DNA of 32,000 bases from Synechocystis sp. PCC 6803 substr. PCC-P (GTDB taxonomy: Bacteria > Cyanobacteriota > Cyanobacteriia > Cyanobacteriales > Microcystaceae), in contig NC_017039.1 in the NCBI RefSeq assembly GCF_000284455.1, positions 2,760,001 through 2,792,000 of the forward strand, in the 5' to 3' direction. Each line of letters starts with the position of its first letter. Positions within the stretch are counted from its first letter, which is position 1. This document shows positions 10,323 to 30,829 of this stretch, piece after piece. The notes under the pieces are model-generated. The model did not search any database and was not told the DNA's origin. It saw only the letters and a list, made by a program, of their open reading frames with translations. A program made the position numbers and the translations under genes.

Positions 10323-10336
10323 AATTAGCATTGCCC

Positions 10337-12325: not shown

Positions 12326-12554
12326 ACTCAGATATTTTGCTTCTCTCCAAGAACAGGCTAAGGTTGCAGAAGAAAGTTTAGTAACAAAGCTAAATACCTA
12401 CCAAGAACTTTATGATTCCTTGGCTAAACGTCATGGTTTTAATTTATCCTCCTCCCAAGTCAAAGTGGCAGTTAATGATGAATTTACCACCATGGAAAAT
12501 ATAATTTTAGACCAGTCCACAATTGTTTTTATCCCCCCCGTTGCTGGGGGTTAA
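12309..12554 (+). CDS. moaD: Molybdopterin synthase sulfur-carrier subunit
   Basis: 81 aa counted from the ATG at 12309, ending in the diagnostic C-terminal Gly-Gly (FIPPVAGG). It overlaps the moaC-mobA end by 17 nt. The track start at 12276 is an over-extension. Confidence 0.8.
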
Positions 12555-12559
12555 TTTCC

Positions 12560-19000: not shown

Positions 19001-19077
19001 GTTCTAAGTCTTGGGAGTTATCCCTCATAATTCGAGCTAACTCAATCAAAACTTAAAGTTTACAGAAACTATTTTTA

Positions 19078-19121
19078 AAGCGATTTCTTCTACAGGGGAA
19101 GTCGCTTTTTGTTGCTTTTTT
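19078..19121 (+). terminator. Rho-independent terminator downstream of psbB
   Basis: 13-bp stem AAGCGATTTCTTC / GGGGAAGTCGCTT (3 G-U pairs), loop TACA, followed by TTTGTTGCTTTTTT. Confidence 0.7.
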
Positions 19122-19230
19122 GGAGTTATTAATAACCTTACCAGTGTGCTATGATGCCAGGGTCAAAGCCCCTGGTAAGCAATTGAAATTAGTTGCTTTT
19201 ACTAATTTTTAACATCCCTTGATTATCACC

Positions 19231-22200
19231 ATGGTCGAATTAACTGAAAATCACTACAACCTACAACAGGAACTGGCCGATGCCCTCCAATCCCTGGGCC
19301 GTAGTATTCATTCTTTGGAAAGGGACATAGTTATTAGCCATTGTGAAATTAATGCCGACCATGGGGTGGGGGTTTTACTGCAAAGGCTTTTTCCCAACTC
19401 AGATGAGCTATTGACAATTCGCTCCCATGATCTTTACGGCGGGCAACAGGAGTTTGGCGATCGCCATTTTTTAGTGCAGGGAGGAAGTTTTGTCACCATT
19501 GCCCAACAGGTGCAGTGGCTGTTGCACTATTATGCTCCCCGAAGATTTTTATCGGTACCTTATTTCCCAGAGGATTACCAAATTTCCATTGCCCTAAAGC
19601 GACTGTATAACTGTCCATTGTGTGTTTTCATTATGGACGATCAAAATATCTACTCTCCCCAGGTACCCGATAGTTTGGTAGATGAATTATTGTACCGGGC
19701 TGATATTTGCTTGGGCATTTCCCGTCCCCTCTGTGATGCCTATGAAGCTAAATTCAAGCGTAAGTTTTGGTTTGTGCCTCCGGTGGTGCAGGGACATTTA
19801 ATTAAAACTGAACCGCCCCAGAGCTGGGACCGATCGCCGAGTAAGCGGCAGGGCGTGATGATTGGCAATGTCTGGAGTCAACAATGGTTAGATCAACTGC
19901 GTTCTTTGTGTCGAGCCACGGGGGTAAAAATTGATTGGTATGGTAACCCCAACCGGGATTGGCTGAATTTTAACGAAGCGGAGTTGGGAGAAGACGGCAT
20001 TAACTTTAAGGGCTTTGTGCCAGAAGATGAGTTAATTGATATTCTTCGAACCGCTGATTTTGCCGTTATTCCCACAGGCATTTCTGACCAGAGCGGCGAT
20101 CGCCCAGAATTAACAAAATTAAGCCTACCTTCCCGTAGTTGCTTTATCACTGCCACTGCCAATCTGCCAATTCTCGTTGTGGGCTCCCCCGAAAGTGCGG
20201 TGGCCCAATTTGTCCAGAGCCAGGGCATCGGTACTGTCTGTGCTTACCAACCAGAGGACTTTTCCGCCAAAATTGATTACTTATTAGAAAACCAAGGGCC
20301 CATGCGTAAACAAGCTTTTAAGCTGGGGCAAAACCTCAGTGCAGACGGCATTGCCCAATGGATTTGGGATTCCCTCGCCCAAGGTCAAGCTATGGATGCC
20401 CGTTTTGAAGCTCAGTCGGCCAAGATCATTGATGCCAGTGTGGTTGTCACCGCCAATGAAGTCACCCATCGCCACGGTACAGGGGCTTTGGTGCGGCGGG
20501 TGTTCCCCAACGATGGGCAAATTATTTCTGTGCGCTCCGACAATCATTACGGCGGTGAACATAACTTTGGTCTCGAGTCTTACTATCTTCCCCAGCGGGG
20601 CTGGAGCCGCAAGCAGGTTTTCACCAATATCACCCAGATTTTCGCTGACCATGAAGTTAGTCGGATCTTTTGTGTGCCCTATTACACCGAAGATGTGCTG
20701 ACGGCGATCGCCATTAAGGAATTATTTGGGGTCCCCCTGGGAATTTGGATTATGGACGACCAAAATATTCGAGTCAACAATATTCCCGATGCTCTGATGG
20801 AGGAATTTTTGCAAAAGGCAGATGTGCGCTTTGCCACTCACCCAGAACTGCGGGATGCCTACGAAAATAAATTTGGTTTGAAGTTTTGGATTTTGCCAGC
20901 AGTGGTTCCCCACAATTTAATTAAAACGACAGTGTTTGAGCCCCGACAGGAAAACTGTCAACAAAAGCGGGGCGCCCTCCTGGGCAGTATCTGGAGTCAA
21001 CGGTGGTTTGCCGACCTCTGTCACAGTGTGAAGGAAGCTGGTATGCAATTAGATTGGTACGGCAACTCCAAATATTATTGGCTAACGGAATCCGAACAGG
21101 ACTTACAAGCCAAAGGTATTTATCCTCAAGGACTTTTTCCCGAAGATAAGTTGGTGGAAAAACTGAAGGAATATCCTTTTGTGGTGGTTCCCACCGGCAC
21201 CATGGATGAGCGGGATGACCAGCCCCAGCTTTCTCAACTGAGTTTACCTGGACGGATCTTGTTTGCCCTGGCCACATCTAACACGCCAGTAATTTTGATG
21301 GGGAGCAAAAAAACCTCCGCCGCTAGTTTTATTAATCGTTTTCAGATTGGCGTGGTTTGTGACTATACCCCAGAAAGTTTTGGGGCTGCGGTGGCCGAAG
21401 TTTTAGACCCCCAACGTCAAAGGGTTCTTAGGGAAAATGCCGTGGCAGCAGCGGAAAAATTTAGTGATCACAATATTGACAGTTGGATTTGGAGTTCCCT
21501 TGCCGAAGGACAAGCCGCCGATGACCGCTTTGAATCCCTCTTCCGGCGATCGCCCATTGACTTAGTACATTTTATCGAGCCTCCAGTGCCCAGCCTGATC
21601 TACAAGGATTACACCCAAGTGTACCAAGTGATGCGGCGATTGAGAGTTAACCATTACCGCCCTGATTTTGTCATGGACGTGGGGGCTTCCCACGGTATTT
21701 GGTCCCACACCGCTAGTCAACTGTTTCCCGAAGCCCGCTTCATTTTAATTGATCCTCTGATTAATCGTTATGAACAGGCTGCCCGTAATTACTATCTTAA
21801 AAATATCCCCAAAGCTAAGTTTTTAGAAATTGCCGTTTCAAACGAATCGGGGCAGCTCAGTTTTCAGGTTTCCCCTGATCTTTACGGTAGTTCCCTGCTC
21901 ACCCCAGCGGACTTTCGGGATTATGAAACAGTGACAGTGGCGGTTAAAACCCTTGACCAAGTGGCTGAGGAAGAAAATCTCCAAGGGCGGGGTATTCTTA
22001 AACTGGATGTGCAGTGCGCCGAACATCTTGTCTTGGCGGGGGCAAATACTTTCCTCGAGCAGGTGGATCTAGTGATGGCAGAACTTTCCTATGTCCGCTA
22101 TGACGAAAATGCCCTGGTCTTTTTAGAGATGCTTAATCTCTTGGATCAATTGGGTTTCCGTTATTACGACGAAACCGGCGAATGGCGATCGCCCATTGAT

Positions 22201-22275
22201 GGTACCCTATTGCAAAAAGAAGTCGTATTCATCCGTCAGGATTTGTTAATACCTGAAACCAGTCGTAAAATTTAG
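19231..22275 (+). CDS. Three-module protein: two tandem glycosyltransferase-like (GT-B-like) modules plus a C-terminal FkbM-family SAM methyltransferase domain
   Basis: ATG at 19231 (the track uses TTG at 19219). Residues ~40-400 and ~410-790 are clear paralogues: HGVGVLLQRLFPN / HGTGALVRRVFPN, CVFIMDDQNIY / GIWIMDDQNIR, DAYEAKFKRKFWFVPPVV / DAYENKFGLKFWILPAVV, WIWDSLAQGQAMDARFE / WIWSSLAEGQAADDRFE. The pattern GFVPEDELIDILRTADFAVIPTG...LPILVVG resembles the GT-B C-terminal half. The tail has FkbM motifs DVGASHGIWS and LKLDVQCAEHLVLAGA. It contains 5 HIP1 sites. Confidence 0.7.
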   Translation: MVELTENHYNLQQELADALQSLGRSIHSLERDIVISHCEINADHGVGVLLQRLFPNSDELLTIRSHDLYGGQQEFGDRHFLVQGGSFVTIAQQVQWLLHYYAPRRFLSVPYFPEDYQISIALKRLYNCPLCVFIMDDQNIYSPQVPDSLVDELLYRADICLGISRPLCDAYEAKFKRKFWFVPPVVQGHLIKTEPPQSWDRSPSKRQGVMIGNVWSQQWLDQLRSLCRATGVKIDWYGNPNRDWLNFNEAELGEDGINFKGFVPEDELIDILRTADFAVIPTGISDQSGDRPELTKLSLPSRSCFITATANLPILVVGSPESAVAQFVQSQGIGTVCAYQPEDFSAKIDYLLENQGPMRKQAFKLGQNLSADGIAQWIWDSLAQGQAMDARFEAQSAKIIDASVVVTANEVTHRHGTGALVRRVFPNDGQIISVRSDNHYGGEHNFGLESYYLPQRGWSRKQVFTNITQIFADHEVSRIFCVPYYTEDVLTAIAIKELFGVPLGIWIMDDQNIRVNNIPDALMEEFLQKADVRFATHPELRDAYENKFGLKFWILPAVVPHNLIKTTVFEPRQENCQQKRGALLGSIWSQRWFADLCHSVKEAGMQLDWYGNSKYYWLTESEQDLQAKGIYPQGLFPEDKLVEKLKEYPFVVVPTGTMDERDDQPQLSQLSLPGRILFALATSNTPVILMGSKKTSAASFINRFQIGVVCDYTPESFGAAVAEVLDPQRQRVLRENAVAAAEKFSDHNIDSWIWSSLAEGQAADDRFESLFRRSPIDLVHFIEPPVPSLIYKDYTQVYQVMRRLRVNHYRPDFVMDVGASHGIWSHTASQLFPEARFILIDPLINRYEQAARNYYLKNIPKAKFLEIAVSNESGQLSFQVSPDLYGSSLLTPADFRDYETVTVAVKTLDQVAEEENLQGRGILKLDVQCAEHLVLAGANTFLEQVDLVMAELSYVRYDENALVFLEMLNLLDQLGFRYYDETGEWRSPIDGTLLQKEVVFIRQDLLIPETSRKI

Positions 22276-22330
22276 CTTTATTTTTTCTAGCTCTTCAATC
22301 TAATTCCTTTCTATTCCAAGCCTAATCATA

Positions 22331-23683
22331 ATGATTAAACAATTATTAAAAAATAATCGTATCGTTCAGAGAATCAAGGTATTGAAAGATCTTTTTCTAC
22401 AGAAATTAGATGACCTCCAGGCAAGTGTTGACCAAATTAAAATAACCACCGATCAAAACCTGGAAGAAATTAGATTAGAATTAGAGCAAAAAAATAGAAA
22501 TATTAATCAGATTTTGGAAAATCAAATATTTCTAATTAAGTCTGCCCTCGATACAGCTAGAACCATTAAATATTTAGTTGAAAGTGGACAGCAAAGACAA
22601 ATTATTGTCGAACAGATGATTAATGCTATCCATCAAGAATTTCAAAGAATTAGGGAAGAATCAGAGAGGAGTAACGGTTATATTCATCAAGAGTTTCAAA
22701 ATATCAGGAGCGAATCCCAGCAAAGGTATCAACTGCTCCACCAAGAGTTCCAGGCTGTTTTGGGTAATCTGCAGCACTACCAAGAAATTTTAATTGATAA
22801 GTTCTTGGATTTACAGGAAAACAGCCAACAGCAAGACGTTTTCTTACGAGAAACCCTAGCTCAGATTGCCGCTGATGTCCATGATCAAAAATTCAAAGTA
22901 GTCACCGATCCCAGCTATTTCCAGGCGATCGACATTGAGTTGATGGTTTATCTCTACTCTTATCTTCCCCACCGACGGACGATCGATGTGGGCGCCAACC
23001 GGGGCGATGTCTCCGCCAGATTGTTACAGACTGGCTACGAAGTTTATGCCTTTGAACCTTTCCCGCCAGTATTAGCCAAATTGCAGGAAAGATTGGGACA
23101 AAATAGCAATTTCCATGCTCTTGGCTACGCCCTAGGATCCGCCAATGAGACTAGGAATTTACACCTAGTGGTGGATCAAACGGAAGACAAAATCTTTGAT
23201 GATGCCACTTTTTATAGCAGTTTGACTCGCCATTCCCTCACTGAAGGCTTAGTCTTCCATGACAGTATTACAGTGGAAGTCAAAACCATCGCTAGTTTGC
23301 ATGAAGCGGGAACTCTGCCTGATGATATTGGCTTAGTCAAAATTGATACAGAAGGATTTGACCTAGAAGTTATTAAGGGCATGGGAAATTTTCGTTACCC
23401 AGTGGTATTGGCCGAATTTTGGGATCCCACTTTCCCCTTTGGGCAAACCGGGGCCATGAACCATCTAGTGGATATGGTGCCAGCTATGCGACAAAGGGAT
23501 TACCGCTGGCATATAATCATCTATCGCATCTGGGGGCAGCACGAGGTCAGTTATTACTGCAACTCGGACTATTCCTTAGAAAATTCTTGGGGCAATGTTT
23601 TCTTCTTTCAGGATTACGAAATCTTTAGCCAGGCTTTAAAATGGTGCAATTCAGTTATGCCCGCCACCTATTTTGCGGCGTAG
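22331..23683 (+). CDS. Coiled-coil N-terminal region (~190 aa) fused to an FkbM-family SAM methyltransferase
   Basis: The N-terminus is rich in Q/E/L/I heptad-like sequence with three 18-aa repeats. The C-terminal half has FkbM motifs IDVGANRGDVSARLLQTGYEVYAFEP and VKIDTEGFDLEVIKGM. Confidence 0.75.
   Translation: MIKQLLKNNRIVQRIKVLKDLFLQKLDDLQASVDQIKITTDQNLEEIRLELEQKNRNINQILENQIFLIKSALDTARTIKYLVESGQQRQIIVEQMINAIHQEFQRIREESERSNGYIHQEFQNIRSESQQRYQLLHQEFQAVLGNLQHYQEILIDKFLDLQENSQQQDVFLRETLAQIAADVHDQKFKVVTDPSYFQAIDIELMVYLYSYLPHRRTIDVGANRGDVSARLLQTGYEVYAFEPFPPVLAKLQERLGQNSNFHALGYALGSANETRNLHLVVDQTEDKIFDDATFYSSLTRHSLTEGLVFHDSITVEVKTIASLHEAGTLPDDIGLVKIDTEGFDLEVIKGMGNFRYPVVLAEFWDPTFPFGQTGAMNHLVDMVPAMRQRDYRWHIIIYRIWGQHEVSYYCNSDYSLENSWGNVFFFQDYEIFSQALKWCNSVMPATYFAA
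22631..22792 (+). repeat. Three in-frame tandem 54-nt (18-aa) repeats inside the coiled-coil region
   Basis: H-Q-E-F-Q codon blocks start at 22631, 22685 and 22739, an exact 54-nt period. The units are IHQEFQRIREESERSNGY / IHQEFQNIRSESQQRYQL / LHQEFQAVLGNLQHYQEI. Confidence 0.8.
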
Positions 23684-23768
23684 CTTGTCCCTAAATACTA
23701 AATGGAGCAAAAAAATTCGTCAGTAGTCATAATCAACAAAGTTCACCTGGAGTTCCACATCATCCCCC

Positions 23769-24545
23769 ATGCTATCACTTCAAGACAACTACTTGTATCT
23801 CTCTAAGCTAGGTGAATTTAAGCAATTGCAGGGGGGAATTGCCGGTTTTTTCTTGGAACAAAGTGCGGCTCTCTGGGATGCTTTGCTAAGTTTTCAAAAT
23901 ACCCATGGTATCCATGGCAATATGCTGGAAATTGGAGTTTACAAAGGTCTGTCAGCTTTGATGTCCTCCCTTCACCTTAAAGAAACAGAAAAATTTGTTC
24001 TAATCGATTGCACGCGCTATATTGAGGACGCAGAAGCCAACCTTGCTCCCATTTTGGGCACCAGAGGGAATTATATTCAGCAACCGTCTTATCAAGTAAC
24101 ACTCCACTCCCTTGGTGATTTGCGTTCTAGTTGCCGTTGGCTTCATATTGATGGTGAACATACGGGCAGGGCTGTGATTAATGATCTTGAATTGTGCGAA
24201 CAACTATTGTCAGATGACGGCATCATAGTTTTAGATGATTTTTTTAATCCTATGTATCCTCAATTAACGGAGGCGGCCTTTTCTTTTTTGTCGGCTAATA
24301 AACATAAGTTATCCATGTTTTTATGTGGTTGGAACAAAGCTTATTTAGCCCGACCACTATTTGCCTTTAACTACAGAAATTTTATTCGACAGGCTTTAGC
24401 CGCGGAGCTTCATCAAAGGGAAATTGACGATTTTATACTGACCAAAACCACCACACTGGATGAATCGACTTCCTTTGGCATAGTTCATCGTTTTACAGAT
24501 AGAGACTACTATGGTTTAGATTCCGATCCTGATTTTTTACCTTAA
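23769..24545 (+). CDS. Class I SAM-dependent methyltransferase (Methyltransf_24 / TylF-CmcI-like pattern)
   Basis: Motif I-like LEIGVYKGLSAL. Later WLHIDGEHTGRAVINDLELCEQLLSDDGIIVLDDF, typical of the family that includes sugar O-methyltransferases. Assigned by eye only. Confidence 0.6.
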   Translation: MLSLQDNYLYLSKLGEFKQLQGGIAGFFLEQSAALWDALLSFQNTHGIHGNMLEIGVYKGLSALMSSLHLKETEKFVLIDCTRYIEDAEANLAPILGTRGNYIQQPSYQVTLHSLGDLRSSCRWLHIDGEHTGRAVINDLELCEQLLSDDGIIVLDDFFNPMYPQLTEAAFSFLSANKHKLSMFLCGWNKAYLARPLFAFNYRNFIRQALAAELHQREIDDFILTKTTTLDESTSFGIVHRFTDRDYYGLDSDPDFLP

Positions 24546-24625
24546 AGTCAAGCTAGCGTAATTAGTTGGGTTTTTATTTTTCGAAAAAATTGCTATCGAA
24601 TCAAGAGTTTAATATATTTTAACTC

Positions 24626-26245
24626 ATGAATAAGTTGCCAAAAATCACCAATACAAACAATGAGTTTTTTGTCAGTATCTTAGCCCTATTATTATTTATT
24701 GGCATATTTTTTATAACTGCATCCTATAGTGATTTATTGAACTCTGGCTTTCGTTATTTCATTGACGATCATCAGATTCCTGTGATGAAACAAGATCTCG
24801 ATAATCACGGCTTTTGGGAAACAGCAAAAATATGGATTAATCATGACAGAAGTATCCAGCGATTTCGTCCTTATTTTCAGCTGCAAGTGGTGACCATCAC
24901 CCAACTCCTGGGAGTTAACTCATTTTTGTGGTTTTCATATATTACTTTGCTGGGAGCTTTTACATCTTTTTTTCTGTTTGCTTTTGGACGAATCTTATTT
25001 TTTTCAATCCCGGTTTCTTTATTTTTTCCGATATCTACCTTGCTAGGAAAGCAATCAGAAATTTGGGTTAGGCCAATGATACCCGATGCTCAAGGTATGT
25101 TTTTTTTGTCGGCCGCCTTATTATTTATTGGTTTAAGCTGTAATCATAGTAAATATTCAAAAATCAACTCCGTAATTGCTATTATTTTAATTATAATAAT
25201 GTCCTTGTGTAAAGAGTCTTACATTATCTTTATACCGACTTTAATTTCTCTTAAGGTTTGGCTTTATAGCGATTTTCAAAAAACTTCCCTGTGGAAATCA
25301 ATTGATACCAATAGGATTTTTGTAGGAGTGTTATTAGCAGTAATGTTTTTAGAGCTTACCTATATAGTTTTTTTCTTGGGAACTAGCGGTATGGGGTACG
25401 CTGGCGTTGATAATGAAACATTAGATTTATTTGCTATTCTTAGAACATCAAAAGATCTATTACTACAAAGCTATTTTCTGCCTATCATAATAAGCATTGT
25501 AATTCTTTTTGTTACAACTCGCCTAACTCATCATTCATTATTAGTTACATTAAAAAAAATAATTCCTTTTATTATTCTGCTCTTCATTTCTCTAATTCCC
25601 CAAACTTTAATTTATACAAAATCAGGGATCATAGCTGCTTTTTATCTATTTCCTTTTATTCTTGTTTCCACCCTTTTATTGTCTAAGATTTTGTCGCTCA
25701 TTGGTGATAGTTGTAGGTGGCTTGGTGTTTTGCTAGTCTCTTGTTTATTATTTACACTTGTCTTTAATCAATCACCATTAGCTTGGGATATTTATTCCCA
25801 ACAATCTCAAGAAAAACAATATATGAATGAGCTGATAGACCAAATTGAAATATGCTCAGAGAAACCAGATCCAATTTTAGTGGTTCTTAATCCTAAAGTT
25901 CGTTATGAAGTATCAGACGCTCTACAAAAAGTTCTACGAAGTGTAAAGCATCGAGAACAATTGTTTATTGTTACTTATGGATTAGAAGGAAGTTTATTTT
26001 ACTCTGATAAATTGGCTGATACTGAAGCTGTGTGGAACTTTTTAGACCCCAAGGCAATCTTGCCTAGCTATAACGGAACATTATTGGATATTCATGATAA
26101 AGGTGATATTAAGACAATAGTGATATTTGATGGCTTAGATGATGATTTTGCCAAAAGTAATATAGATTGGTTTTCTCCAAAAGAATATCAAATGAAACGG
26201 TTTGATATTAGTCTTGCCCCCAGTACTCTTTACTGCAAAAAATAA
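24626..26245 (+). CDS. Polytopic membrane protein, GT-C-like glycosyltransferase candidate, with a ~150-aa C-terminal soluble domain
   Basis: 539 aa with about 10-12 hydrophobic segments. An acidic motif follows TM1 (RYFIDDHQIP), then RFRPYF. Very AT-rich (14 G+C in the 60 nt 25501-25560). No HIP1 sites. Confidence 0.55.
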   Translation: MNKLPKITNTNNEFFVSILALLLFIGIFFITASYSDLLNSGFRYFIDDHQIPVMKQDLDNHGFWETAKIWINHDRSIQRFRPYFQLQVVTITQLLGVNSFLWFSYITLLGAFTSFFLFAFGRILFFSIPVSLFFPISTLLGKQSEIWVRPMIPDAQGMFFLSAALLFIGLSCNHSKYSKINSVIAIILIIIMSLCKESYIIFIPTLISLKVWLYSDFQKTSLWKSIDTNRIFVGVLLAVMFLELTYIVFFLGTSGMGYAGVDNETLDLFAILRTSKDLLLQSYFLPIIISIVILFVTTRLTHHSLLVTLKKIIPFIILLFISLIPQTLIYTKSGIIAAFYLFPFILVSTLLLSKILSLIGDSCRWLGVLLVSCLLFTLVFNQSPLAWDIYSQQSQEKQYMNELIDQIEICSEKPDPILVVLNPKVRYEVSDALQKVLRSVKHREQLFIVTYGLEGSLFYSDKLADTEAVWNFLDPKAILPSYNGTLLDIHDKGDIKTIVIFDGLDDDFAKSNIDWFSPKEYQMKRFDISLAPSTLYCKK

Positions 26246-26277
26246 ATTAACAATTATATATATTACGATCAATTTGT

Positions 26278-28074
26278 ATGATTAACTTTTCCGAAAACAG
26301 GACTACCAATTATTTCAAGCACTTCAATATTCAGTTTATTTTTCCTTATCTTTTTATTATTTCCCTTGTATTTTTTTCTCGTTTTCTTTTCATTAATGAT
26401 TTTGGACTTTACGAAGATGATTGGGCATTTAGTGGTACAGCTATCTCAAATAATTTAGCTCAAAACTGGATTAGGCTTAGGGCTTCCTTTGGTAGTTTTT
26501 GGCAGGGTCGTCCACTCCATATGACTTTTCTTACCTTTATCCCCTTTATCGGGGCAAAACTCGGAGGAATTAGGGCCCTATATTTAATTGGATTTACGAT
26601 TTTAAGTTTAAATGCTTGTCTTTGGTATTCTTTATTAAAAAAAATTACAAAAAATAAAAATGTGGCAATCATTGCTAGTTTACTTTTTGTCCTATATCCT
26701 GCCGATACAACATTTGGTCTTTTACAACATTTAATCGGTATCCAAACCGCTCTGTTGTTTCTTCTCATTGCCTTTCACGTTTACGTTTCTTCTTCTGAAA
26801 AACATAAATTAAACTATTTTAGGAAGCCAATCAGCTATGTTTTTGCAACTCTATCTCTGCTAGATTACGAAAGCTTATTCTTGATTTTTTTGACTGCCCC
26901 CCTGCTTAATCACCCCAAAAGTACAAAAAAGGAAAAACTCTATCATTTTCTAACCTTAACAATAATTCTTGCCATCTATTTATTTCTCAGAAAATTAGCT
27001 GGGGAATCTAGGATAAGTGGGATAACGGGACTTCAGCTTATCCAAAAAGTTGTATATCAAGTTTTCTGGGGTCCCTTAATAGCTTTTTATTCGTTTTTCA
27101 AACGTCCCATCGAAGTAATTTCATCCCCAAGGGTAGAGAATATTATTATTTTTTGTATTGGATTAATATTATTTTTTATCGTTCTAAGGTATTTATTCAA
27201 TAAACAGTTTTTACAAAATGATATCCCAGCAGATTTAAATACATTTCAAGAATTTTGGAAGTTGTCAGGGACAGGATTACTGATGACTATTCTAGGTTAT
27301 TCATCTGCATTACTTTTATCTGTTCACGATATCAATGGTCGGGCTTCCCGAGTTCATTTTTCTGCAGCTTTGGGCATTACTTTGATTCTTGCTTGTATTT
27401 GGGGTATTGCTTTTTATATTACCCGCGTGCATAAATTTTGGCATACATTATTAATTTTATTATTGTCTGTCTACCTCAGTTTTTTGTTAACCTTCTCGAT
27501 CAGCGTTCAGCAATATTATAAAATGAGTTGGCAATATCAACAGGCTTTTTGGCATGATGTTTTTACCTTAGTTCCTGACATCAAGGAGGGAACAATAATC
27601 CTTGTGCAAGCACCCAGTCTGGTCTGGGGTAAGCAAATTAATCCCTTTGACTGGAGCTTACCAGTTGTGTTGGAATCAATATATGACTTTCCCGATGATT
27701 GGCAATTTTCTCCAAGGACTTACCGTCTTAATTCAGATGTAGTTGAGCCTGAACAGTGGAAGGATAAAGTAATTAGCAATCGGAAGTTTGTTTTATCCGG
27801 TAAAAATGACGGCTTATTTTTTTACTTCCCCTGGGAACCAGAAAGAATAGTTGAACCCCAAGATGTTGTTTTACTAGTGGAAGAGCAAGGGCAATTAGTC
27901 AGGAAAGAGAAGTTCCAGACCACGGCTGGAGAAATAATTTATCTAAAGCCTAAGACAAACGATCAACCAACTCTAGATTTACCCACCACTGTTATTTTTG
28001 AACATTTGATGCCACCACCAGATTGTGATTATTGCGGTTCTGTTCCACGTATTTATTTTCAGCCTCAAGAGTAA
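26278..28074 (+). CDS. Polytopic membrane protein, GT-C-like glycosyltransferase candidate, with a ~190-aa C-terminal soluble domain
   Basis: 598 aa with about 11-13 hydrophobic segments. The loop after TM1 carries GLYEDDWAFSG and WQGRPLHMTFL, reminiscent of the DE / HPPL loop-1 motifs of the PMT_2/ArnT-type GT-C families. AT-rich (15 G+C in 26641-26700). No HIP1 sites. Confidence 0.55.
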   Translation: MINFSENRTTNYFKHFNIQFIFPYLFIISLVFFSRFLFINDFGLYEDDWAFSGTAISNNLAQNWIRLRASFGSFWQGRPLHMTFLTFIPFIGAKLGGIRALYLIGFTILSLNACLWYSLLKKITKNKNVAIIASLLFVLYPADTTFGLLQHLIGIQTALLFLLIAFHVYVSSSEKHKLNYFRKPISYVFATLSLLDYESLFLIFLTAPLLNHPKSTKKEKLYHFLTLTIILAIYLFLRKLAGESRISGITGLQLIQKVVYQVFWGPLIAFYSFFKRPIEVISSPRVENIIIFCIGLILFFIVLRYLFNKQFLQNDIPADLNTFQEFWKLSGTGLLMTILGYSSALLLSVHDINGRASRVHFSAALGITLILACIWGIAFYITRVHKFWHTLLILLLSVYLSFLLTFSISVQQYYKMSWQYQQAFWHDVFTLVPDIKEGTIILVQAPSLVWGKQINPFDWSLPVVLESIYDFPDDWQFSPRTYRLNSDVVEPEQWKDKVISNRKFVLSGKNDGLFFYFPWEPERIVEPQDVVLLVEEQGQLVRKEKFQTTAGEIIYLKPKTNDQPTLDLPTTVIFEHLMPPPDCDYCGSVPRIYFQPQE

Positions 28075-28434
28075 TTGACATTAGCTTGTTAGCAGGTTTG
28101 CTGGAGGCGGTTAAAGTAACAAAAAAATAGAATAAAGAGGATTAAGCGAATAAAGAAACATCTTTCTACGTTTGTAGCGTTTTTCAATCTAGCAATGCAT
28201 AAAAAGTTTCTTATTTTTTTTACTTCTCTTTTGTCAGACTGGGCAAGTTGATTTTTTGCAAACCCTCAAAGCCCATTAACAACAATGTATTTAGATTGTG
28301 TACTTCATAAAATACTAGCGCCCATGGTTATCGAGTCTTGAAAATCTTGAAATGCCTCCACAGTAAGACTTTTTGTGTAGTACTGAAAAATATTCTTTCC
28401 GAGATTCAGGAAAGAGGGGTAGTTGAGTGACAGC

Positions 28435-28544
28435 TTGTTTGAAAATTAGGCTCTAAGCCCTACTAAATAGGGTTTTCAGCGTTTATTATCAAAACATACT
28501 CAAATGTTTGCTCAGCAAGGGATTGAGCAAAACTTTTCAAACAC
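28435..28544 (-). repeat. MITE-like element B (~110 nt), inverted relative to element A
   Basis: The right end CTTTTCAAACAC (28533-28544) is the exact reverse complement of element A's left end. The left end TTGTTTGAAAAT (28436-28447) matches GTGTTTGAAAAG at 10/12. Internal hairpins are CCCTActaaaTAGGG and TTGCTCAgcaagggatTGAGCAA. Length is similar to element A. Confidence 0.5.
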
Positions 28545-28547
28545 ATT

Positions 28548-28751
28548 CTAATTTTGCTAGTGCAGGAAAACAGAAAATTAGTCCGTAAAGACTATATCAA
28601 GACCAGCTCGGGACAAAAAATTGCTCTTAAGCCAAAACCACAATCCACTTTGCCGCCGAATTTTGCGACTCTCCCCGTATTTGATCGCGTCATGTCATCT
28701 AGTTGTGACCATTGCAGTAAAGTACCGCCCGTATACTTCGAAAATCCCTAA
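28548..28751 (+). pseudogene. 5'-truncated remnant of a paralogue of the 598-aa membrane protein (C-terminal ~65 codons only)
   Basis: The translation (I)LLVQENRKLVRKDYIKTSSGQKIALKPKPQSTLPPNFATLPVFDRVMSSSCDHCSKVPPVYFENP aligns with the C-terminus of ORF 26278-28074: VLLVEEQGQLVRKEKFQTTAGEIIYLKPKTNDQPTLDLPTTVIFEHLMPPPDCDYCGSVPRIYFQPQE. Shared blocks are LVRK, LKPK, CDxC, VPxxYF, and the stop is at the equivalent position. Homology starts within a few nt of element B's end. Confidence 0.7.
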
Positions 28752-28836: not shown

Positions 28837-28881
28837 ATTCGAAGCGACGCGGGATAGAGCAGTCTGGTAGCTCGTCGGGCT

Positions 28882-29536
28882 CAGGTCGCAAGATGTAAAC
28901 CATGAGCACTAAGCTTAAGGGTGACATTGCAGAGCAAGCCGCCATTCTTCGTGCATTGAAGCTTGGTTGGGGGGTTCTGAAGCCATTGGGAGACCGTCTT
29001 TCTTACGATTTGGTCTTTGATGTCGAAGGGATCCTTCTGAAGGTGCAGGTTAAAAGCTCCTGGTTCAGCGAAAAGACTGGCAACTATGTTGTTGACAATC
29101 GCAGAACAAGGACAAACAGAAGAAACATTGTTAGATCTCCTTATCGTGGGAATGACTTTGATTTTGCTGTTGCCTACGTCGAAGAACTTGAGCTGTTTTA
29201 CGTCTTCCCGGTTGATGTCTTTATCAGTTACGGCAGTGAAATTCACCTGGTCGAAACTGATAAGCGTCAGAGAAAACCAAGGTCATTCGGTTACCGAGAG
29301 GCTTGGCATCTCATCTTGCAAAAAGGGGCTGCGCAAAAGGAAACTTCTGCGTGATTATCTCTCAAATTCGGGGAAGCCTTTCAAATGGTAATCCCGAGCC
29401 AAACCTAGGAATGCTTGGTGTTTCTGGGAAGGTGTAGAGACTTAATGGGAGACACCCTAACAGAAAAGCTGAGGGTGAAGAGAAAGTCCAGACCACAAAC
29501 TGACAGAGTCAGGCAGTGAAAACTGTAGTTGGTAAG
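28882..29536 (+). mobile_element. Group I self-splicing intron (655 nt) in tRNA-fMet
   Basis: Boundaries were placed so the 5' exon ends in U (28881) and the intron ends in G (29536), as group I introns require. A CA dinucleotide at both junctions allows a 1-2 nt shift. An intron at this position in cyanobacterial tRNA-fMet is established knowledge. Confidence 0.85.
28902..29354 (+). CDS. Intron-encoded PD-(D/E)XK-family homing endonuclease (I-Ssp6803I)
   Basis: 150-aa ORF lying wholly inside the intron. MSTKLKGDIAEQAAILRALKLGWGVLKPLGDRLSYDLVFDVEG..LKVQVKSS shows the restriction-endonuclease-like D...(E/Q)xK core. Identity as I-Ssp6803I is from memory. Confidence 0.85.
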   Translation: MSTKLKGDIAEQAAILRALKLGWGVLKPLGDRLSYDLVFDVEGILLKVQVKSSWFSEKTGNYVVDNRRTRTNRRNIVRSPYRGNDFDFAVAYVEELELFYVFPVDVFISYGSEIHLVETDKRQRKPRSFGYREAWHLILQKGAAQKETSA

Positions 29537-29597
29537 CATAACCCGAAGGTCGGTGGTTCAAATCCGCCTCCCGCCATTAAAAAAAAAGAAAAAAATT

Positions 29598-29631
29598 CCC
29601 CCCGCCGGATAATGGTTGGGGGGTTTGTTTT
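29598..29631 (+). terminator. Rho-independent terminator after the tRNA gene
   Basis: Stem CCCCCCGCC / GGTTGGGGGG (6 G-C pairs plus an inner extension), loop GGATAAT, followed by TTTGTTTT. It is preceded by an A-rich tract (29578-29595). Confidence 0.7.
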
Positions 29632-29647
29632 ATTCAATCTAAAGTTT

Positions 29648-30829
29648 ATGGCTACTGGTTCCACTGCCTACACTTGGCTAGACGATGCTCTAGAAACTAT
29701 TCAGCGGGCCCATTGGCATCGCCATCCCCAGATAATTACCCAAGGGCCAGGGCCAGAAATTAAGTTGGAGGGGCAACGGCTAGTTAATTTTGCTAGCAAT
29801 GATTATCTTGGCTTAGCTAGCCATCCCCACCTAAAAACAGCGGCCATTAAGGCGATCGCCGAATGGGGAACCGGCAGTACAGGTTCCCGGTTGCTGAGTG
29901 GCCACCGTCAGCTCCATCAAGACTTGGAACAGGCCATTGCCCGCTGGAAGGGGACGGAAGCCGCTTTGGTGTTCAGTTCTGGCTATTTGGCTAATTTGGG
30001 CACCATCACGGCGTTGGTGGGTAAACGGGATTTGATTTTAGCGGACGAATATAACCATTCCAGTCTGAAGCGTGGAGCCCAGTTGAGTGGAGCCAAGGTA
30101 ATTAACTATGACCATGGGTGCCCAGAGGTTTTGACCGATCTATTAATGAAACATCGAGACAATCACCGTCGTTGTTTGATTCTCAGTGATGGGGTGTTCA
30201 GTATGGATGGCGATTTATGTCCCTTGCCCCAGTTAGTGGCGATCGCCGAAGAATTTCAAAGCATGTTGCTAGTGGACGATGCCCATGGCACTGGCACTAT
30301 GGGAAAAATGGGCACGGGCTGTCGAGAACACTTTCAGTTACCGGTGGGAGATTGGATTCAGGTGGGAACCCTCAGTAAAGCTCTGGGGAGCCTGGGGGGT
30401 TATGTGGCTGGTAGTGCATCTTTGATAGATTTTCTGCGCAATCGAGCTGCCACTTGGATTTATACCACCGGCCTTTCACCGGCTGACACCGCCGCTGCCC
30501 TGGCGGCCATCCAACTGATCCAACGGGAACCAGAACGCATTGTCCAACTCCAGCTCAACGTTGATTACCTAGCCACAGGGTTGGAAAGTCTGACAAAATT
30601 AAACTTTCGGCGATCGCCAATTAATTCCCCCATCCTCTGGGTAGGGGCCGCCAATCCAGCCATGGCTCTGGAAATGGCCAAGCATTTACGAGAACAGGGC
30701 ATTTTTGCCCCGGCCATTCGTCCCCCCACGGTTCCCCACAGTCGAATACGTTTTTCGGTCATGGCCACCCACTCCCCAGGGCACATTGACCAACTATTAG
30801 AAGTACTGGACCACTATTACCCCAATTAG
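29648..30829 (+). CDS. bioF: 8-amino-7-oxononanoate synthase (PLP-dependent)
   Basis: 393 aa from the ATG at 29648. Motifs are [31 protein letters not shown] and the PLP-lysine region [13 protein letters not shown]. The 437-aa track ORF from 29516 overlaps tRNA exon 2 and the terminator, so it is over-extended. Confidence 0.9.

What the first reader, a model, noticed from the sequence alone, without database searches (positions are those of the whole stretch)
19219..28751. Candidate undescribed glycan synthesis and methylation system (two GT modules, three methyltransferase domains, two GT-C-like membrane proteins)
Five co-directional genes with short gaps (55, 85, 80 and 32 nt) encode two GT-B-like modules, two FkbM domains, one class I SAM methyltransferase and two GT-C-like membrane enzymes. 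One methyltransferase is attached to a repeat-containing coiled coil. The window shows no Wzx/Wzy/Wzz, ABC exporter, initiating phosphoglycosyltransferase or nucleotide-sugar genes. A plausible model is cytoplasmic assembly and O-methylation of a short glycan, followed by periplasmic transfer to an unknown acceptor such as lipid A-core, pilin, S-layer protein or exopolysaccharide. Three methyltransferase domains in one small cluster, and a mosaic origin with a native-like first gene and foreign-like distal genes, are unusual.
Basis: inference. Interest (0 to 1): 0.7.

Follow-up and report, generated by a model that had tools for sequence, protein, structure and literature searches.

The report
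Strain-variable methylated surface-glycan gene cluster
Five uncharacterised genes downstream of psbB in Synechocystis PCC 6803 most likely build, methyl-cap and decorate a cell-surface sugar polymer; this is a new variant of a familiar bacterial pathway, and part of it was swapped in from elsewhere.

Summary
The window is the Synechocystis sp. PCC 6803 chromosome. The five genes run from slr0907 and slr0909 through three downstream genes, and the literature held here describes them only as "unknown".

Domain assignments:
- g1 is an internally duplicated GT4-like module pair with a C-terminal FkbM methyltransferase.
- g2 is a variable-length coiled coil followed by FkbM.
- g3 is a Methyltransf_24 methyltransferase.
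- g4 and g5 belong to two unrelated families with no Pfam model. Confident AlphaFold models of both match only GT-C glycosyltransferases (ArnT, PglB/STT3, DPY19, AftA, PMT).

Relatives supply the "missing" exporter. In other genomes g1-family genes sit directly downstream of Wzm/Wzt. In four such loci the Wzt carries a Wzt_C-like tail (confirmed by Pfam in one). That marks the ABC-transporter-dependent pathway, in which glycan chains are terminated by a cap that Wzt recognises. In PCC 6803 the transporter must be encoded elsewhere.

g5-type GT-C genes accompany g1-type genes across several phyla.

The mosaic origin is real. A 4-kb low-GC3 cassette (g4 plus g5) replaced the resident GT-C gene. 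The last 67 codons of that gene survive at 28548-28751, next to the intron-containing tRNA-fMet gene.

Published CRISPRi data show strong fitness gains when slr0907 or slr0909 is repressed.

Verdict: a real, uncharacterised new variant of a known kind. The glycan product and its acceptor are unknown.

The parts
19219..22275 (+). g1 (slr0907), 1018 aa from the TTG start (the annotated ATG at 19231 gives 1014 aa). It has two tandem GT4-like modules (about aa 37-400 = 19327-20418 and aa 408-775 = 20440-21543) and a C-terminal FkbM methyltransferase (aa 818-982 = about 21670-22164).
   Evidence: The internal duplication is 38% identical, E 6e-96. FkbM scores 110 bits on TIGR01444. The module profile matches a GT4 profile at 94% probability, with controls at or below 2.4%. 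Glycos_transf_1 is sub-threshold here and matches 4 of 32 relatives at E <= 0.01. Gtf3_C is precomputed (faint) for this protein and listed for most relatives. The invariant motif is MDDQN. The EX7E position is occupied by LSLPSR.
22331..23683 (+). g2 (slr0909), 450 aa. It has a conserved basic N-terminal 27 residues, a variable-length repeat-containing coiled coil (to about aa 195, 22331-22915) and an FkbM methyltransferase (aa 217-392).
   Evidence: Domains. An alignment of 5 orthologues shows a length-variable repeat region and a conserved catalytic domain. Heptad and composition analysis. The identity with slr0909 follows from the NtcA ChIP peak coordinates.
23769..24545 (+). g3, 258 aa, a class I SAM methyltransferase (Methyltransf_24).
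   Evidence: Pfam 67.7 bits against a cut-off of 26.3. In relatives the same domain is fused to a g1-type GT module plus FkbM (L040, 836 aa; P0248).
24626..26245 (+). g4, 539 aa, a GT-C-fold membrane glycosyltransferase from a family with no Pfam model. The near-invariant Asp48 sits in a DD pair in the first loop, Asp74 is invariant, and there is a C-terminal soluble domain of about 160 aa.
   Evidence: AF2 model pLDDT 88.5. The top 22 Foldseek PDB hits are all GT-C: DPY19 6.9e-5, ArnT TM 0.50, ALG9, PglB, AftA. Conserved residues. The family has 941 representatives in an exhaustive profile search.
26278..28074 (+). g5, 598 aa, a GT-C-fold membrane glycosyltransferase from a second, unrelated family. 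It has the invariant first-loop motif G43-x-Y45-(E46)-D47-D48, and R78, D143, Y197-E198 and R238 are invariant. There is a C-terminal beta-rich domain.
   Evidence: AF2 model pLDDT 92.9, pTM 0.93. The top 12 Foldseek hits are all GT-C: ArnT, STT3, AftA, PglB, Pmt4, DPY19. Single family members match Pfam GtrII (3e-6) and PMT_2 (4.6e-4). Invariant residues. NCBI names the protein 'glucosyltransferase domain-containing protein'.
24543..28548 (+). The swapped-in cassette: g4, g5 and 474 nt of non-coding DNA. It has atypically low GC3 and replaces the first ~534 codons of the resident GT-C gene.
   Evidence: GC3 is 0.27 and 0.31 here, against 0.50-0.53 for native genes, including the membrane proteins MatE and PsbB. 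Homology with S. salina and MAG L094 stops at 24542 and resumes at 28549.
28548..28751 (+). Relic 3' end (the last 67 codons) of the ancestral g5-type gene.
   Evidence: By tblastn it is 92.5% identical to the C-terminus of P0034, 73% to S. salina P0039, and only 38% to the intact g5. It is colinear with the g5*-tRNA-bioF arrangement in S. salina.
19077..19218 (+). A terminator-like hairpin downstream of psbB (19077-19108), followed by the presumed promoter region of the cluster.
   Evidence: A 14-bp stem followed by a T-rich tail; sequence. No comparable + strand terminator lies in the four intergenic gaps. Co-transcription itself was not tested.

Best explanation
The locus encodes the cytoplasmic assembly and capping part, and the periplasmic modification part, of an ABC-transporter-dependent surface polysaccharide pathway (O-antigen or EPS type). 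The transporter itself is encoded elsewhere in PCC 6803.

Inferred mechanism:
1. The two GT4-like modules of g1 act as a two-site polymerase. They extend a glycan on an undecaprenyl-linked primer at the cytoplasmic face of the membrane.
2. The fused FkbM domain of g1, the coiled-coil-tethered FkbM of g2 and the Methyltransf_24 enzyme g3 O-methylate the chain. At least one of them probably caps the non-reducing end, stopping elongation and marking the chain for export. This would parallel WbdD in E. coli O8/O9a, RfbT in Vibrio cholerae and WsaE in Geobacillus. The variable-length coiled coil of g2 is a candidate spacer or ruler.
3. An unlinked Wzm/Wzt exports the chain. sll0574/sll0575 and slr0977/slr0982 are the candidates named in the literature.
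4. The GT-C enzymes g5 (the conserved partner) and g4 (an accessory) act in the periplasm with polyprenyl-phosphate-linked donors. They either add side-chain sugars, as GtrC-type enzymes do, or transfer the glycan to its acceptor.

What is shown: the domain identities, the GT-C folds, the synteny, the linkage to Wzm/Wzt in relatives, and the cassette replacement.

What is inferred: every catalytic step, the carrier lipid, the donor sugars and the acceptor.
For: - Methyltransferase domains pass curated cut-offs.
- g1 modules are duplicated and GT4-like.
- g4 and g5 have confident models whose only meaningful PDB matches are GT-C enzymes. Both have conserved acidic motifs in the loop after TM1, and that loop contains two short helices in both models.
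- In Microcoleus locus L040 the gene order is Wzm (ABC2_membrane), Wzt (ABC_tran plus Wzt_C, 4.5e-22), a fusion of one g1-type GT module with FkbM and Methyltransf_24, a second g1-type module, FkbM, GT2, and then polytopic membrane proteins.
- A Wzt with a Wzt_C-like tail lies immediately upstream of g1-type genes in L038, L040, L048 and L051. Wzm/Wzt pairs lie within 10 kb in 13 of 77 loci from several phyla.
- An FkbM gene lies within 10 kb of the g1-type gene in 35 of 47 loci of at least 15 kb, usually directly downstream.
- g5-family genes accompany g1-family genes in cyanobacteria and also in Acidobacteriota, Myxococcota and Gammaproteobacteria.
- The g2 coiled coil varies in repeat number between species while both its ends are conserved.
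- CRISPRi repression of slr0907 and slr0909 gives matching condition profiles of strong fitness gain, up to +3.8 and +4.8 with padj about 0.005. Repression of the Wzm homologue sll0574 (-5) and of rfbP sll1535 (-7.8) is strongly deleterious. That is the pattern expected for a dispensable, costly polymer whose late-stage block is toxic (PMC10615215 Data Set 2).
- The locus varies between strains: g1 alone, g1 with a deletion, or different methyltransferase and GT-C genes. Such variation is typical of surface-antigen loci.
Against: - No transporter, initiating transferase or sugar-nucleotide gene lies in the window, so the link to a specific exporter in PCC 6803 is untested.
- The GT4 assignment of g1 rests on sub-threshold Pfam scores and one profile-profile comparison. 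The EX7E motif of retaining GT4 enzymes is not conserved, and no structure was predicted for g1.
- Sequence profiles of g1, g4 and g5 find nothing in the PDB.
- CRISPRi repression of g3-g5 gave no significant fitness effect, so those data do not show that they act in the same pathway as g1 and g2.
- Fisher et al. saw no change in O-antigen composition in slr0977/slr0982 mutants (PMC3769361), so the product may not be O-antigen.
- Most g1-family loci (34 of 47 long ones) show no ABC ATPase within 10 kb.
- No GtrB-like GT2 or GtrA-like flippase is present next to g4 and g5 in PCC 6803.
Confidence: 0.55

Rival explanations
1. This is a protein O-glycosylation system. g1-g3 build a methylated oligosaccharide on a lipid carrier. 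A GT-C enzyme (g5, with or without g4) then acts as an oligosaccharyltransferase, or as a TfpW- or PMT-like enzyme, and transfers sugars to pilin PilA1, the S-layer protein or another secreted protein.
For: - The GT-C structural matches include the protein-modifying enzymes PglB/STT3, PMT and DPY19.
- One g5-family member matches Pfam PMT_2.
- In Oscillatoria (L011) a g4-type gene lies beside an SLH-domain protein and a set of sugar-nucleotide genes (dehydratase/epimerase, DegT aminotransferase, CMP-sugar-type cytidylyltransferase) that resembles nonulosonic-acid biosynthesis. That reading of the gene set is mine and was not tested.
- From my own knowledge, not tested here: WsaE-type multi-domain methyl- and glycosyltransferases serve S-layer glycans in Geobacillus.
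Against: - No candidate acceptor gene is conserved next to the cluster.
- Linkage to Wzt_C is best known from O-polysaccharide pathways, although S-layer glycans also use Wzm/Wzt.
- No WWDxG-type OST motif was looked for or seen. The TM-scores to PglB are no better than those to ArnT.
Confidence: 0.15
2. These are two functionally separate units that are merely adjacent. g1-g3 make a methylated glycan. That glycan could even be an intracellular polymethylated polysaccharide of the mycobacterial MMP/MGLP type. g4 and g5 are an unrelated, horizontally acquired envelope-modification cassette, for example an ArnT-like lipid A or core modification or a Gtr-like serotype conversion of another glycan.
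For: - g4 and g5 were acquired as a separate low-GC3 cassette.
- Strain FACHB-383 and S. salina LEGE 00031 have g1 with no recognisable g2-g5 genes after it.
- Geminocystis has the GT gene plus FkbM with no g4- or g5-family gene.
- The CRISPRi phenotypes differ: g1 and g2 are significant, g3-g5 are not.
- g4-type genes also occur in clusters that lack a g1-type gene (L005, L011).
Against: - The cassette replaced a resident g5-type gene rather than inserting into neutral DNA, so a GT-C at this position predates the swap.
- g5-family genes recur beside g1-family genes in distant phyla.
- The gaps are short, the genes are co-directional, and no terminator is predicted between them.
- Linkage to Wzm/Wzt (Wzt_C) argues against an intracellular product.
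Confidence: 0.2
3. The duplicated modules of g1 are not glycosyltransferases. They would be another kind of GT-B-like or Rossmann-type transferase, for example a TagF-like phosphotransferase or a non-catalytic scaffold. The cluster would then make or modify something other than a conventional glycan.
For: - Pfam scores are below threshold for the PCC 6803 protein.
- The EX7E motif is absent and is replaced by a family-specific LSLPSR motif, together with an MDDQN motif.
- There is no PDB sequence match even at E = 10.
- No similarity to E. coli WbbI was found, despite NCBI's name 'beta-1,6-galactofuranosyltransferase' for relatives.
Against: - The GT4 profile match at 94% covers 272 columns in the correct register, and the four control profiles score at or below 2.4%.
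- Four relatives match Glycos_transf_1 at E <= 0.01, the best at 2.3e-6.
- The consistent genomic company is GT2 and GT4 genes, methyltransferases and Wzm/Wzt.
Confidence: 0.07

Closest known systems
E. coli O8/O9a polymannan O-antigen system: WbdA polymerase, WbdD terminator/ruler and Wzm/Wzt with a carbohydrate-binding Wzt C-domain (described from my own knowledge of the Whitfield-lab literature)
   Same: Both have a multi-module GT4-type polymerase, a methyltransferase attached to a long coiled coil, and chain capping by methylation. In relatives of g1, a Wzt with a Wzt_C domain is encoded directly upstream.
   Different: The methyltransferases here are FkbM and Methyltransf_24, not the WbdD class I methyltransferase (with or without its kinase). 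The coiled coil is N-terminal rather than C-terminal. One methyltransferase is fused to the polymerase. The GT modules lack EX7E. The transporter is unlinked in PCC 6803. One or two GT-C enzymes belong to the locus.
Geobacillus stearothermophilus WsaE (S-layer glycan; one polypeptide with a methyltransferase and two rhamnosyltransferase domains; my own knowledge, Steiner et al. 2008)
   Same: In both, a single protein combines two glycosyltransferase modules with a methyltransferase domain. This suggests alternating-linkage polymerisation followed by methyl capping and ABC-transporter export.
   Different: The domain order is reversed (the methyltransferase is C-terminal here) and the GT and methyltransferase families differ. 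No sequence similarity was tested or seen. The acceptor is unknown here.
Three-component periplasmic glycan modification systems that use a GT-C enzyme: GtrA/GtrB/GtrC of Shigella and Salmonella phages, GmlABC of Klebsiella O2, GacI/GacL-type systems and ArnC/ArnT
   Same: g4 and g5 have the GT-C fold, acidic residues in the first loop and a C-terminal soluble domain. One g5 relative matches Pfam GtrII. The genes are exchanged as a cassette next to a tRNA gene. In relatives a GT2 gene lies next to the GT-C genes.
   Different: PCC 6803 has no GtrA-like flippase or GtrB-like GT2 in the locus. Neither family reaches the threshold of any Pfam or NCBIfam model. The two families are unrelated to each other by profile comparison.
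Vibrio cholerae O1 RfbT (an FkbM-related methyltransferase that methylates the terminal perosamine of an ABC-exported O-antigen; my own knowledge)
   Same: It is an FkbM-type methyltransferase in an ABC-transporter-dependent O-polysaccharide context. A related metagenomic locus carries an FkbM protein with a weak V_cholerae_RfbT match.
   Different: RfbT is a single-domain enzyme with no coiled coil and no GT fusion. Terminal specificity of g1, g2 or g3 was not tested.
Mycobacterial methylmannose polysaccharide (MMP) cluster: a GT4 mannosyltransferase plus the MeT1 and MeT3 methyltransferases (my own knowledge)
   Same: Both are small clusters that combine a GT4-type polymerising transferase with several sugar O-methyltransferases.
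   Different: MMP is cytoplasmic and needs no GT-C enzyme or exporter. Here GT-C partners and Wzm/Wzt linkage in relatives point to the envelope.

Membership tests
GT-C glycosyltransferase superfamily (g4 and g5) | Overall fold: a polytopic N-terminal membrane domain superposable on known GT-C enzymes | tested here: met
   For g5 (pLDDT 92.9), the top 12 Foldseek PDB hits are all GT-C (ArnT E 2e-3, probability 1.00, TM 0.37-0.41). For g4 (pLDDT 88.5), the top 22 are all GT-C (DPY19 6.9e-5; ArnT TM 0.50). The TM-scores are moderate, so this shows fold-level similarity, not subfamily-level similarity.
GT-C glycosyltransferase superfamily (g4 and g5) | A conserved acidic (DxD/ExD/DE-type) motif in the first extracytoplasmic loop, which also contains short juxtamembrane helices | tested here: met
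   In g5, Y45, D47 and D48 are invariant and E46 is at least 90% conserved over 65 sequences. In g4, D48 is at least 90% conserved and D74 is invariant over 21 sequences. In both models TM1 is followed by two short helices before TM2. The sidedness of the loop was not tested experimentally.
GT-C glycosyltransferase superfamily (g4 and g5) | Use of a polyprenyl-phosphate-linked or polyprenyl-diphosphate-linked sugar donor | not testable with these tools
   This needs biochemistry. It is only suggestive that GT2 genes lie beside GT-C genes in relatives.
Pfam GtrII (PF14264) / PMT_2 (PF13231) families (g5) | A score at or above the curated family threshold | tested here: not met
   The PCC 6803 protein gives no hit even at E = 10. 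Of 65 relatives, only 1 matches GtrII (3e-6) and 1 matches PMT_2 (4.6e-4). g5 is related at superfamily level but is not a member of either family.
GT-B fold, GT4-like glycosyltransferase (g1 modules) | A profile match to GT4 (Glycos_transf_1) over the C-terminal Rossmann domain | tested here: inconclusive
   Pfam scores 20-21 bits against a cut-off of 26.4 for the PCC 6803 protein. Four of 32 relatives match at E <= 0.01, the best at 2.3e-6. hhalign gives 94% probability (E 8e-8, 272 columns) against a 9-sequence GT4 profile, with controls at or below 2.4%. Smaller GT4 sub-profiles give only 5-9%.
GT-B fold, GT4-like glycosyltransferase (g1 modules) | The EX7E catalytic/donor-binding motif of retaining GT4 enzymes | tested here: not met
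   In the hhalign register the motif position is occupied by the family-invariant S302-x-P304 within L-S-L-P-S-R and by non-acidic residues.
GT-B fold, GT4-like glycosyltransferase (g1 modules) | A two-Rossmann-domain three-dimensional structure | not tested
WbbI / PRK09814 'beta-1,6-galactofuranosyltransferase' (the NCBI name given to some g1 relatives) | Detectable homology to E. coli K-12 WbbI | tested here: not met
   hhalign of the g1 family profile, and of the single-module profile, against WbbI gives probability 0.2%. The name should not be relied on.
FkbM methyltransferase family (g1 C-terminus, g2 C-terminus) | A score above the curated cut-offs of TIGR01444 and PF05050 | tested here: met
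   g1 scores 110.4 bits and g2 99 bits against a cut-off of 37.7. On Pfam they score 56 bits against 22.7.
WbdD-type chain terminator/ruler | A methyltransferase (with or without a kinase) joined to a coiled coil, encoded with a polymerising GT and Wzm/Wzt (Wzt_C) | tested here: inconclusive
   A coiled coil joined to a methyltransferase, and adjacency to a duplicated GT, are shown. Wzt_C linkage is seen only in relatives. There is no kinase domain, the methyltransferase family is different and the domain order is opposite. This is a functional analogy only. Homology to WbdD was not tested.
ABC-transporter-dependent polysaccharide pathway | Wzm/Wzt encoded with the polymerase | tested here: not met
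   The feature is absent from the 32-kb window. It is present next to g1-family genes in 13 of 77 related loci. For PCC 6803 the assignment therefore rests on inference from relatives.

The most novel reading that the evidence does not exclude
The g5-type GT-C enzyme, the partner of g1-type polymerases that is conserved across phyla, may not be a side-chain decorating enzyme. It may instead be a new class of glycan ligase or oligosaccharyltransferase. Such an enzyme would take the methyl-capped, ABC-exported polymer from its undecaprenyl carrier and attach it en bloc to its final acceptor: lipid A-core, a glycolipid anchor or a surface protein. It would replace a WaaL- or PglL-type ligase. g4 would then be an accessory specificity factor, exchanged with g5 as a cassette under phage or grazer pressure.
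Probability: 0.12. Interest if true: 0.8.

Novelty: new variant of a known kind. Interest (0 to 1): 0.5.

Why it matters
Synechocystis PCC 6803 is the main cyanobacterial model organism, yet the genes that build its O-antigen and related surface glycans are largely unassigned. Mutants in the obvious Wzm/Wzt genes changed EPS but not O-antigen composition (PMC3769361; the review PMC4390846 draws the same conclusion). This cluster is a concrete, testable candidate for a polymerase, terminator and modification unit.

It is tied to a phenotype that the paper reporting it does not discuss: CRISPRi repression of slr0907 or slr0909 is among the strong fitness gains in turbidostats, and is strongest without nitrogen. 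That bears on strain engineering (carbon cost, flocculation and harvesting) and on resistance to phage and grazers.

The work also delineates two GT-C families that have no Pfam or NCBIfam model. One has at least 941 representative sequences, and 113 sequence clusters were found for the other. It also delineates an MDDQN-motif double-GT family found in 134 species genomes across several phyla.

The mapped cassette replacement next to tRNA-fMet is a clean example of how surface-glycan loci diversify in cyanobacteria.

Tried and rejected
- Sequence-only searches of the PDB with g1, g2 and g3 and with profiles of the g1, g4 and g5 families gave nothing useful. The weak LSm2, HdfR and nitroreductase hits are chance matches.
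- The NCBI name 'beta-1,6-galactofuranosyltransferase' for g1 relatives was tested against E. coli K-12 WbbI and rejected.
- g4 and g5 are not detectable paralogues: BLASTP finds nothing and hhalign gives 17% probability.
- My first impression that the g4 family is tiny (27 clusters in the word-indexed search) was wrong. The exhaustive profile search finds 941 representatives.
- Low GC in g4 and g5 as a side effect of membrane-protein composition was rejected. The membrane proteins MatE and PsbB in the same window have a GC3 of 0.51-0.53.
- I looked for an NtcA box (GTA-N8-TAC) under the published intragenic NtcA ChIP peak in slr0909 (window about 23191-23431). There is none. The only perfect sites in the window are at the nirA promoter (6880), inside psbB (18098) and inside g4 (25209), and that number is what chance predicts.
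- Tandem Repeats Finder does not detect the g2 repeats at the DNA level. They are visible only at the protein level.
- ARAGORN finds no tRNA in the window, because the tRNA-fMet gene is split by a ~655-nt intron. The exons were located by eye and by alignment with the intron-less S. salina gene.
- The promoter and terminator scans are at chance level overall and do not establish operon structure. The Kopf 2014 transcription-unit tables are not held as text.
- Literature searches for O-methyl sugars in Synechocystis LPS, and for FkbM in cyanobacterial O-antigen, found nothing usable.
- One look-up of encoding contigs failed and was repeated later.

Full report
IDENTITY OF THE WINDOW AND CHECK OF THE OBSERVATION

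The g4 protein is encoded with an identical sequence in the Synechocystis sp. PCC 6803 chromosome (BA000022.2), and the neighbouring genes match the window. Upstream lie nirA, cynS, the moa genes, a comM-like gene, a bchE-like gene and psbB. Downstream lie a PD-(D/E)XK ORF, bioF and map.

The published NtcA ChIP peak assigned to slr0909 (2785363-2785603) falls inside g2. The cluster therefore runs from slr0907 (g1) and slr0909 (g2) onward.

A full-text search for slr0907 to slr0913 found only two papers. Both describe the genes as unknown.

The five ORFs and the gaps of 55, 85, 80 and 32 nt are exactly as reported. The stated end, 28751, lies 677 nt beyond the g5 stop codon. This is explained under 'Mosaic origin' below.

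DOMAIN ASSIGNMENTS

Methyltransferases. The three methyltransferase domains are solid:
- FkbM in g1, residues 818-982
- FkbM in g2, residues 217-392
- Methyltransf_24 in g3

All three score well above the curated cut-offs.

g1. The N-terminal ~780 residues are an internal duplication: two modules of about 365 aa, 38% identical, E 6e-96.

The GT-B/GT4 nature of these modules is the weakest assignment:
- Pfam Glycos_transf_1 scores 20-21 bits against a cut-off of 26.4.
- Four of 32 relatives match that model at E <= 0.01, the best at 2.3e-6.
- The precomputed Gtf3_C hit is 'faint' for this protein and its nearest relatives and is listed for most family members.
- I cut both modules out of 32 family members to make a 64-sequence profile and compared it locally with a 9-sequence GT4 profile. 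That profile contained E. coli WbbK, WcaL, WcaI, WcaC, WaaG and WaaB plus three cyanobacterial GT4 proteins.
- The comparison gave 94% probability, E 8e-8, over 272 columns in the expected register.
- Control profiles gave 0.9% (SDR), 0.1% (GT2), 0.1% (GT8) and 2.4% (GT9).

Two points count against a canonical GT4:
- The EX7E motif is not conserved. Its place is taken by the family-invariant L-S-L-P-S-R.
- E. coli WbbI shows no similarity, so NCBI's name 'beta-1,6-galactofuranosyltransferase' for some relatives is unsupported.

g2. The first 27 residues and the FkbM domain are conserved. Residues about 30-195 are nearly free of Pro and Gly, are rich in charged residues and Gln, and show a heptad pattern. 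They carry species-specific repeats in different numbers: three IHQEFQxIRxES units in PCC 6803, four in S. salina, and a different repeat in Microcystis.

g4 and g5. Neither matches any Pfam or NCBIfam model, even at E = 10. They are not detectably related to each other.

Both have:
- about 11-13 hydrophobic helices
- a loop of 55-60 residues after TM1 that carries acidic motifs
- a soluble C-terminal domain of 160-190 residues

AlphaFold2 models built on family alignments are confident: g5 has pLDDT 92.9 and pTM 0.93, and g4 has pLDDT 88.5.

Foldseek against the PDB returns only GT-C enzymes at the top:
- For g5, the top 12 hits are ArnT, STT3, AftA, PglB, Pmt4 and DPY19.
- For g4, the top 22 hits are DPY19 (6.9e-5), ArnT (TM 0.50), ALG9, PglB, AftA, ALG12, PMTs, AftD and ALG3.
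- Below these, the matches have low probability.

In both models TM1 is followed by two short helices before TM2.

The acidic residues of that loop are conserved. In g5, Y45, D47 and D48 are invariant in 65 sequences. In g4, D48 is at least 90% conserved and D74 is invariant.

One g5 relative matches Pfam GtrII, and another matches PMT_2.

The g4 family looked tiny in the word-indexed search (27 clusters). An exhaustive profile search finds 941 representatives, 447 of them at E <= 1e-30.

CO-CONSERVATION

The gene order recurs in related genomes:

| Genome (locus) | Arrangement |
|---|---|
| Snowella (L004) | g1, g2, g3, g5-type, g4-type, then more GT2/GT4 genes and an FkbM |
| Microcystis viridis (L008) | g1, g2, DUF8201 membrane protein, g5-type, g4-type, FkbM |
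| S. salina LEGE 06099 (L010) | g1, g2, g3, one g5-type gene |
| Synechocystis CS-94 (L015) | g1 with a deletion, g2, a different methyltransferase, one g5-type gene |

I scanned one genome per species (185,579 genomes) for the g1 family. The search patterns were built on its conserved motif [YFW][ILV]MDDQN. It found 134 genomes and 77 loci were fetched. They come from cyanobacteria and also from Acidobacteriota, Verrucomicrobiota, Myxococcota and Proteobacteria.

A local HMM census of these loci gave:
- An FkbM gene within 10 kb of the GT gene in 35 of 47 loci of at least 15 kb, usually directly downstream.
- A g5-family gene in 10 of 77 loci. These include Gammaproteobacteria (L069), Solibacter (L071), Bryobacteraceae (L080) and Myxococcales (L088, L089).
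- A g4-family gene in 5 loci.

Domain fusions link the parts. One relative fuses a g1-type module with FkbM and Methyltransf_24 in a single 836-aa protein.

THE MISSING EXPORTER

In Microcoleus locus L040, Pfam gives this order:
- Wzm (ABC2_membrane)
- Wzt (ABC_tran plus Wzt_C, 4.5e-22)
- the GT-FkbM-Methyltransf_24 fusion
- a second g1-type module
- FkbM
- GT2, GNAT and another methyltransferase
- two polytopic membrane proteins with no Pfam model

A Wzt with a Wzt_C-like tail lies immediately upstream of the g1-type gene in L038, L040, L048 and L051. Wzm/Wzt pairs lie within 10 kb in 13 loci from several phyla.

Wzt_C is the carbohydrate-binding domain that recognises the terminal cap of completed chains in ABC-transporter-dependent O-polysaccharide pathways. 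This statement rests on established knowledge of E. coli O8/O9a and was not tested here.

The g1 family therefore belongs to that type of pathway. In PCC 6803 the transporter is simply unlinked. The literature names slr0977/slr0982 and sll0574/sll0575 as Wzm/Wzt homologues (PMC3769361).

MOSAIC ORIGIN

Codon composition. GC3 falls along the cluster:

| Genes | GC3 |
|---|---|
| Native genes, including the membrane proteins MatE and PsbB | 0.50-0.53 |
| g1 | 0.49 |
| g2 | 0.44 |
| g3 | 0.36 |
| g4 | 0.27 |
| g5 | 0.31 |

The relic. The 65-codon ORF that ends at 28751 is the 3' end of a different g5 allele. Its identities are:
- 92.5% to the last 67 residues of P0034 (a metagenome-assembled genome)
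- 73% to S. salina P0039
- 38% to the intact g5

Breakpoints. DNA alignments place them precisely:
- Homology with S. salina and with MAG L094 runs to the end of g3 (24542).
- It resumes at 28549, at 83.6% and 93.4% identity respectively.
- It then continues through the tRNA-fMet 5' exon into bioF.

In those genomes g3 is followed directly by a single 601-aa g5-type gene.

PCC 6803 therefore exchanged the first ~534 codons of its resident GT-C gene for a ~4-kb foreign cassette carrying g4 and g5.

Further variation within the genus:
- FACHB-383 and S. salina LEGE 00031 have g1 alone after psbB.
- CS-94 has a 275-nt deletion in module 1 that splits g1.

FUNCTIONAL DATA FROM THE LITERATURE

CRISPRi screen. 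In the pooled screen of Miao et al. 2023 (PMC10615215, Supplemental Data Set 2), repression of slr0907 and slr0909 gave matching profiles of fitness gain:

| Condition | slr0907 | slr0909 |
|---|---|---|
| HC, IL | +1.8 | +3.0 |
| HC, LL | +3.2 | +3.4 |
| HC, LL, -N | +3.8 | +4.8 |
| HC, LL, +FL | +1.9 | +2.6 |
| LC, IL | +2.0 | +1.6 |

Adjusted P values are about 0.005 in the strongest conditions. Some entries, such as slr0907 in HC, IL (padj 0.10), are not significant. The paper classes scores of 2-4 as 'strong positive fitness'.

Other results from the same table:
- No gene between slr0909 and slr0915 appears in the table of genes significant in any condition.
- The Wzm homologue sll0574 scores about -5 in all conditions.
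- rfbP (sll1535) scores -7.8.
- slr0977 and slr0982 score about -1 to -2.

This fits a dispensable but costly polymer whose late-stage block is harmful. It does not prove that these genes share a pathway.

NtcA. ChIP-seq found an intragenic NtcA peak in slr0909, with increased expression under nitrogen starvation. That is the condition in which repression is most beneficial. I found no canonical NtcA box under the peak.

INTERPRETATION

The best-supported reading (confidence about 0.55) is a polymerase, terminator and periplasmic modification unit of an ABC-transporter-dependent surface glycan. It is analogous to WbdA/WbdD or WsaE combined with a Gtr-like GT-C step.

The rivals are:
- a protein-glycosylation system (0.15)
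- two functionally independent adjacent units (0.2)
- g1 not being a glycosyltransferase at all (0.07)

The product, donor sugars, carrier, acceptor and transcript structure are all untested.

NOVELTY AND SCORE

The kind of system is known. The specific components are new and unclassified:
- an MDDQN-motif double GT that lacks EX7E
- an N-terminal coiled coil joined to FkbM
- two GT-C families with no Pfam or NCBIfam model

The genes are uncharacterised in a major model organism. The cassette swap and the CRISPRi phenotype make the cluster readily testable.

I rate it a new variant of a known kind, with interest 0.5.

Noticed in passing
window 28848-29576 (5' exon 28848-28883, intron about 28884-29538, 3' exon about 29539-29576); ORF 28902-29354: The initiator tRNA-fMet gene is split by a ~655-nt group I intron (Rfam Intron_gpI, 72 bits, 29302-29513). 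The intron carries a 150-aa PD-(D/E)XK endonuclease ORF (PDDEXK_5, 1e-54). From my own knowledge this is the known I-Ssp6803I homing-endonuclease intron. ARAGORN misses the tRNA. The S. salina gene has no intron: its alignment joins 28883 directly to 29537. CRISPRi repression of slr0915 (the ORF between slr0909 and bioF in the table, which I take to be this endonuclease ORF) is strongly deleterious (about -4), presumably because it blocks tRNA-fMet transcription.
   Followed up: partly
window 29516-30829: The mechanically listed 437-aa bioF ORF starts at a GTG inside the intron and tRNA 3' exon region. One public annotation places the start at about 29648, giving 393 aa (L001).
   Followed up: no
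window 9150-12997 and 15275-16774: The molybdenum-cofactor genes (moeA, moaA, moaC-mobA, moaE) and the bchE-like radical SAM gene also have atypically low GC3 (0.33-0.36, against about 0.51 for their neighbours). They may be further foreign or fast-evolving segments in this window.
   Followed up: no
window 19995-20268 (within g1 module 1), compared with L015: Synechocystis sp. CS-94 lacks these 275 nt, which splits g1 into ORFs of 255 and 611 aa. The identical 611-aa protein also occurs in other Synechocystis assemblies. This may be natural inactivation or remodelling of the first GT module, and it recalls the fitness gain seen on CRISPRi repression.
   Followed up: partly
window 23191-23431 (inside g2): This is the published intragenic NtcA ChIP-seq peak under nitrogen starvation (PMC5714215), converted to window coordinates. 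No GTA-N8-TAC box lies under it. A promoter-like site lies at 23488-23517. The peak might mark an internal start site for g3-g5.
   Followed up: partly
window 3382-6594: A 1070-aa protein combines a GH9 endoglucanase domain with CBM2 cellulose-binding modules, in a cyanobacterium that does not degrade plant cell walls. It lies about 13 kb upstream and has no evident link to the cluster.
   Followed up: no
L011 1074-9489 (Oscillatoria sp. FACHB-1407): A g4-type GT-C gene sits beside two more polytopic proteins with no Pfam model (546 and 550 aa) and an SLH-domain protein. Next to them is a set of sugar-nucleotide genes (Polysacc_synt_2 dehydratase, DegT aminotransferase, CMP-sugar-type cytidylyltransferase, HisF/HisH-like pair) that resembles nonulosonic-acid biosynthesis.
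   Followed up: no
L008 14554-16329 (Microcystis viridis NIES-102): A third membrane protein (591 aa, Pfam DUF8201) is inserted between g2 and the g5-type gene in Microcystis. It belongs to neither the g4 nor the g5 family.
   Followed up: no
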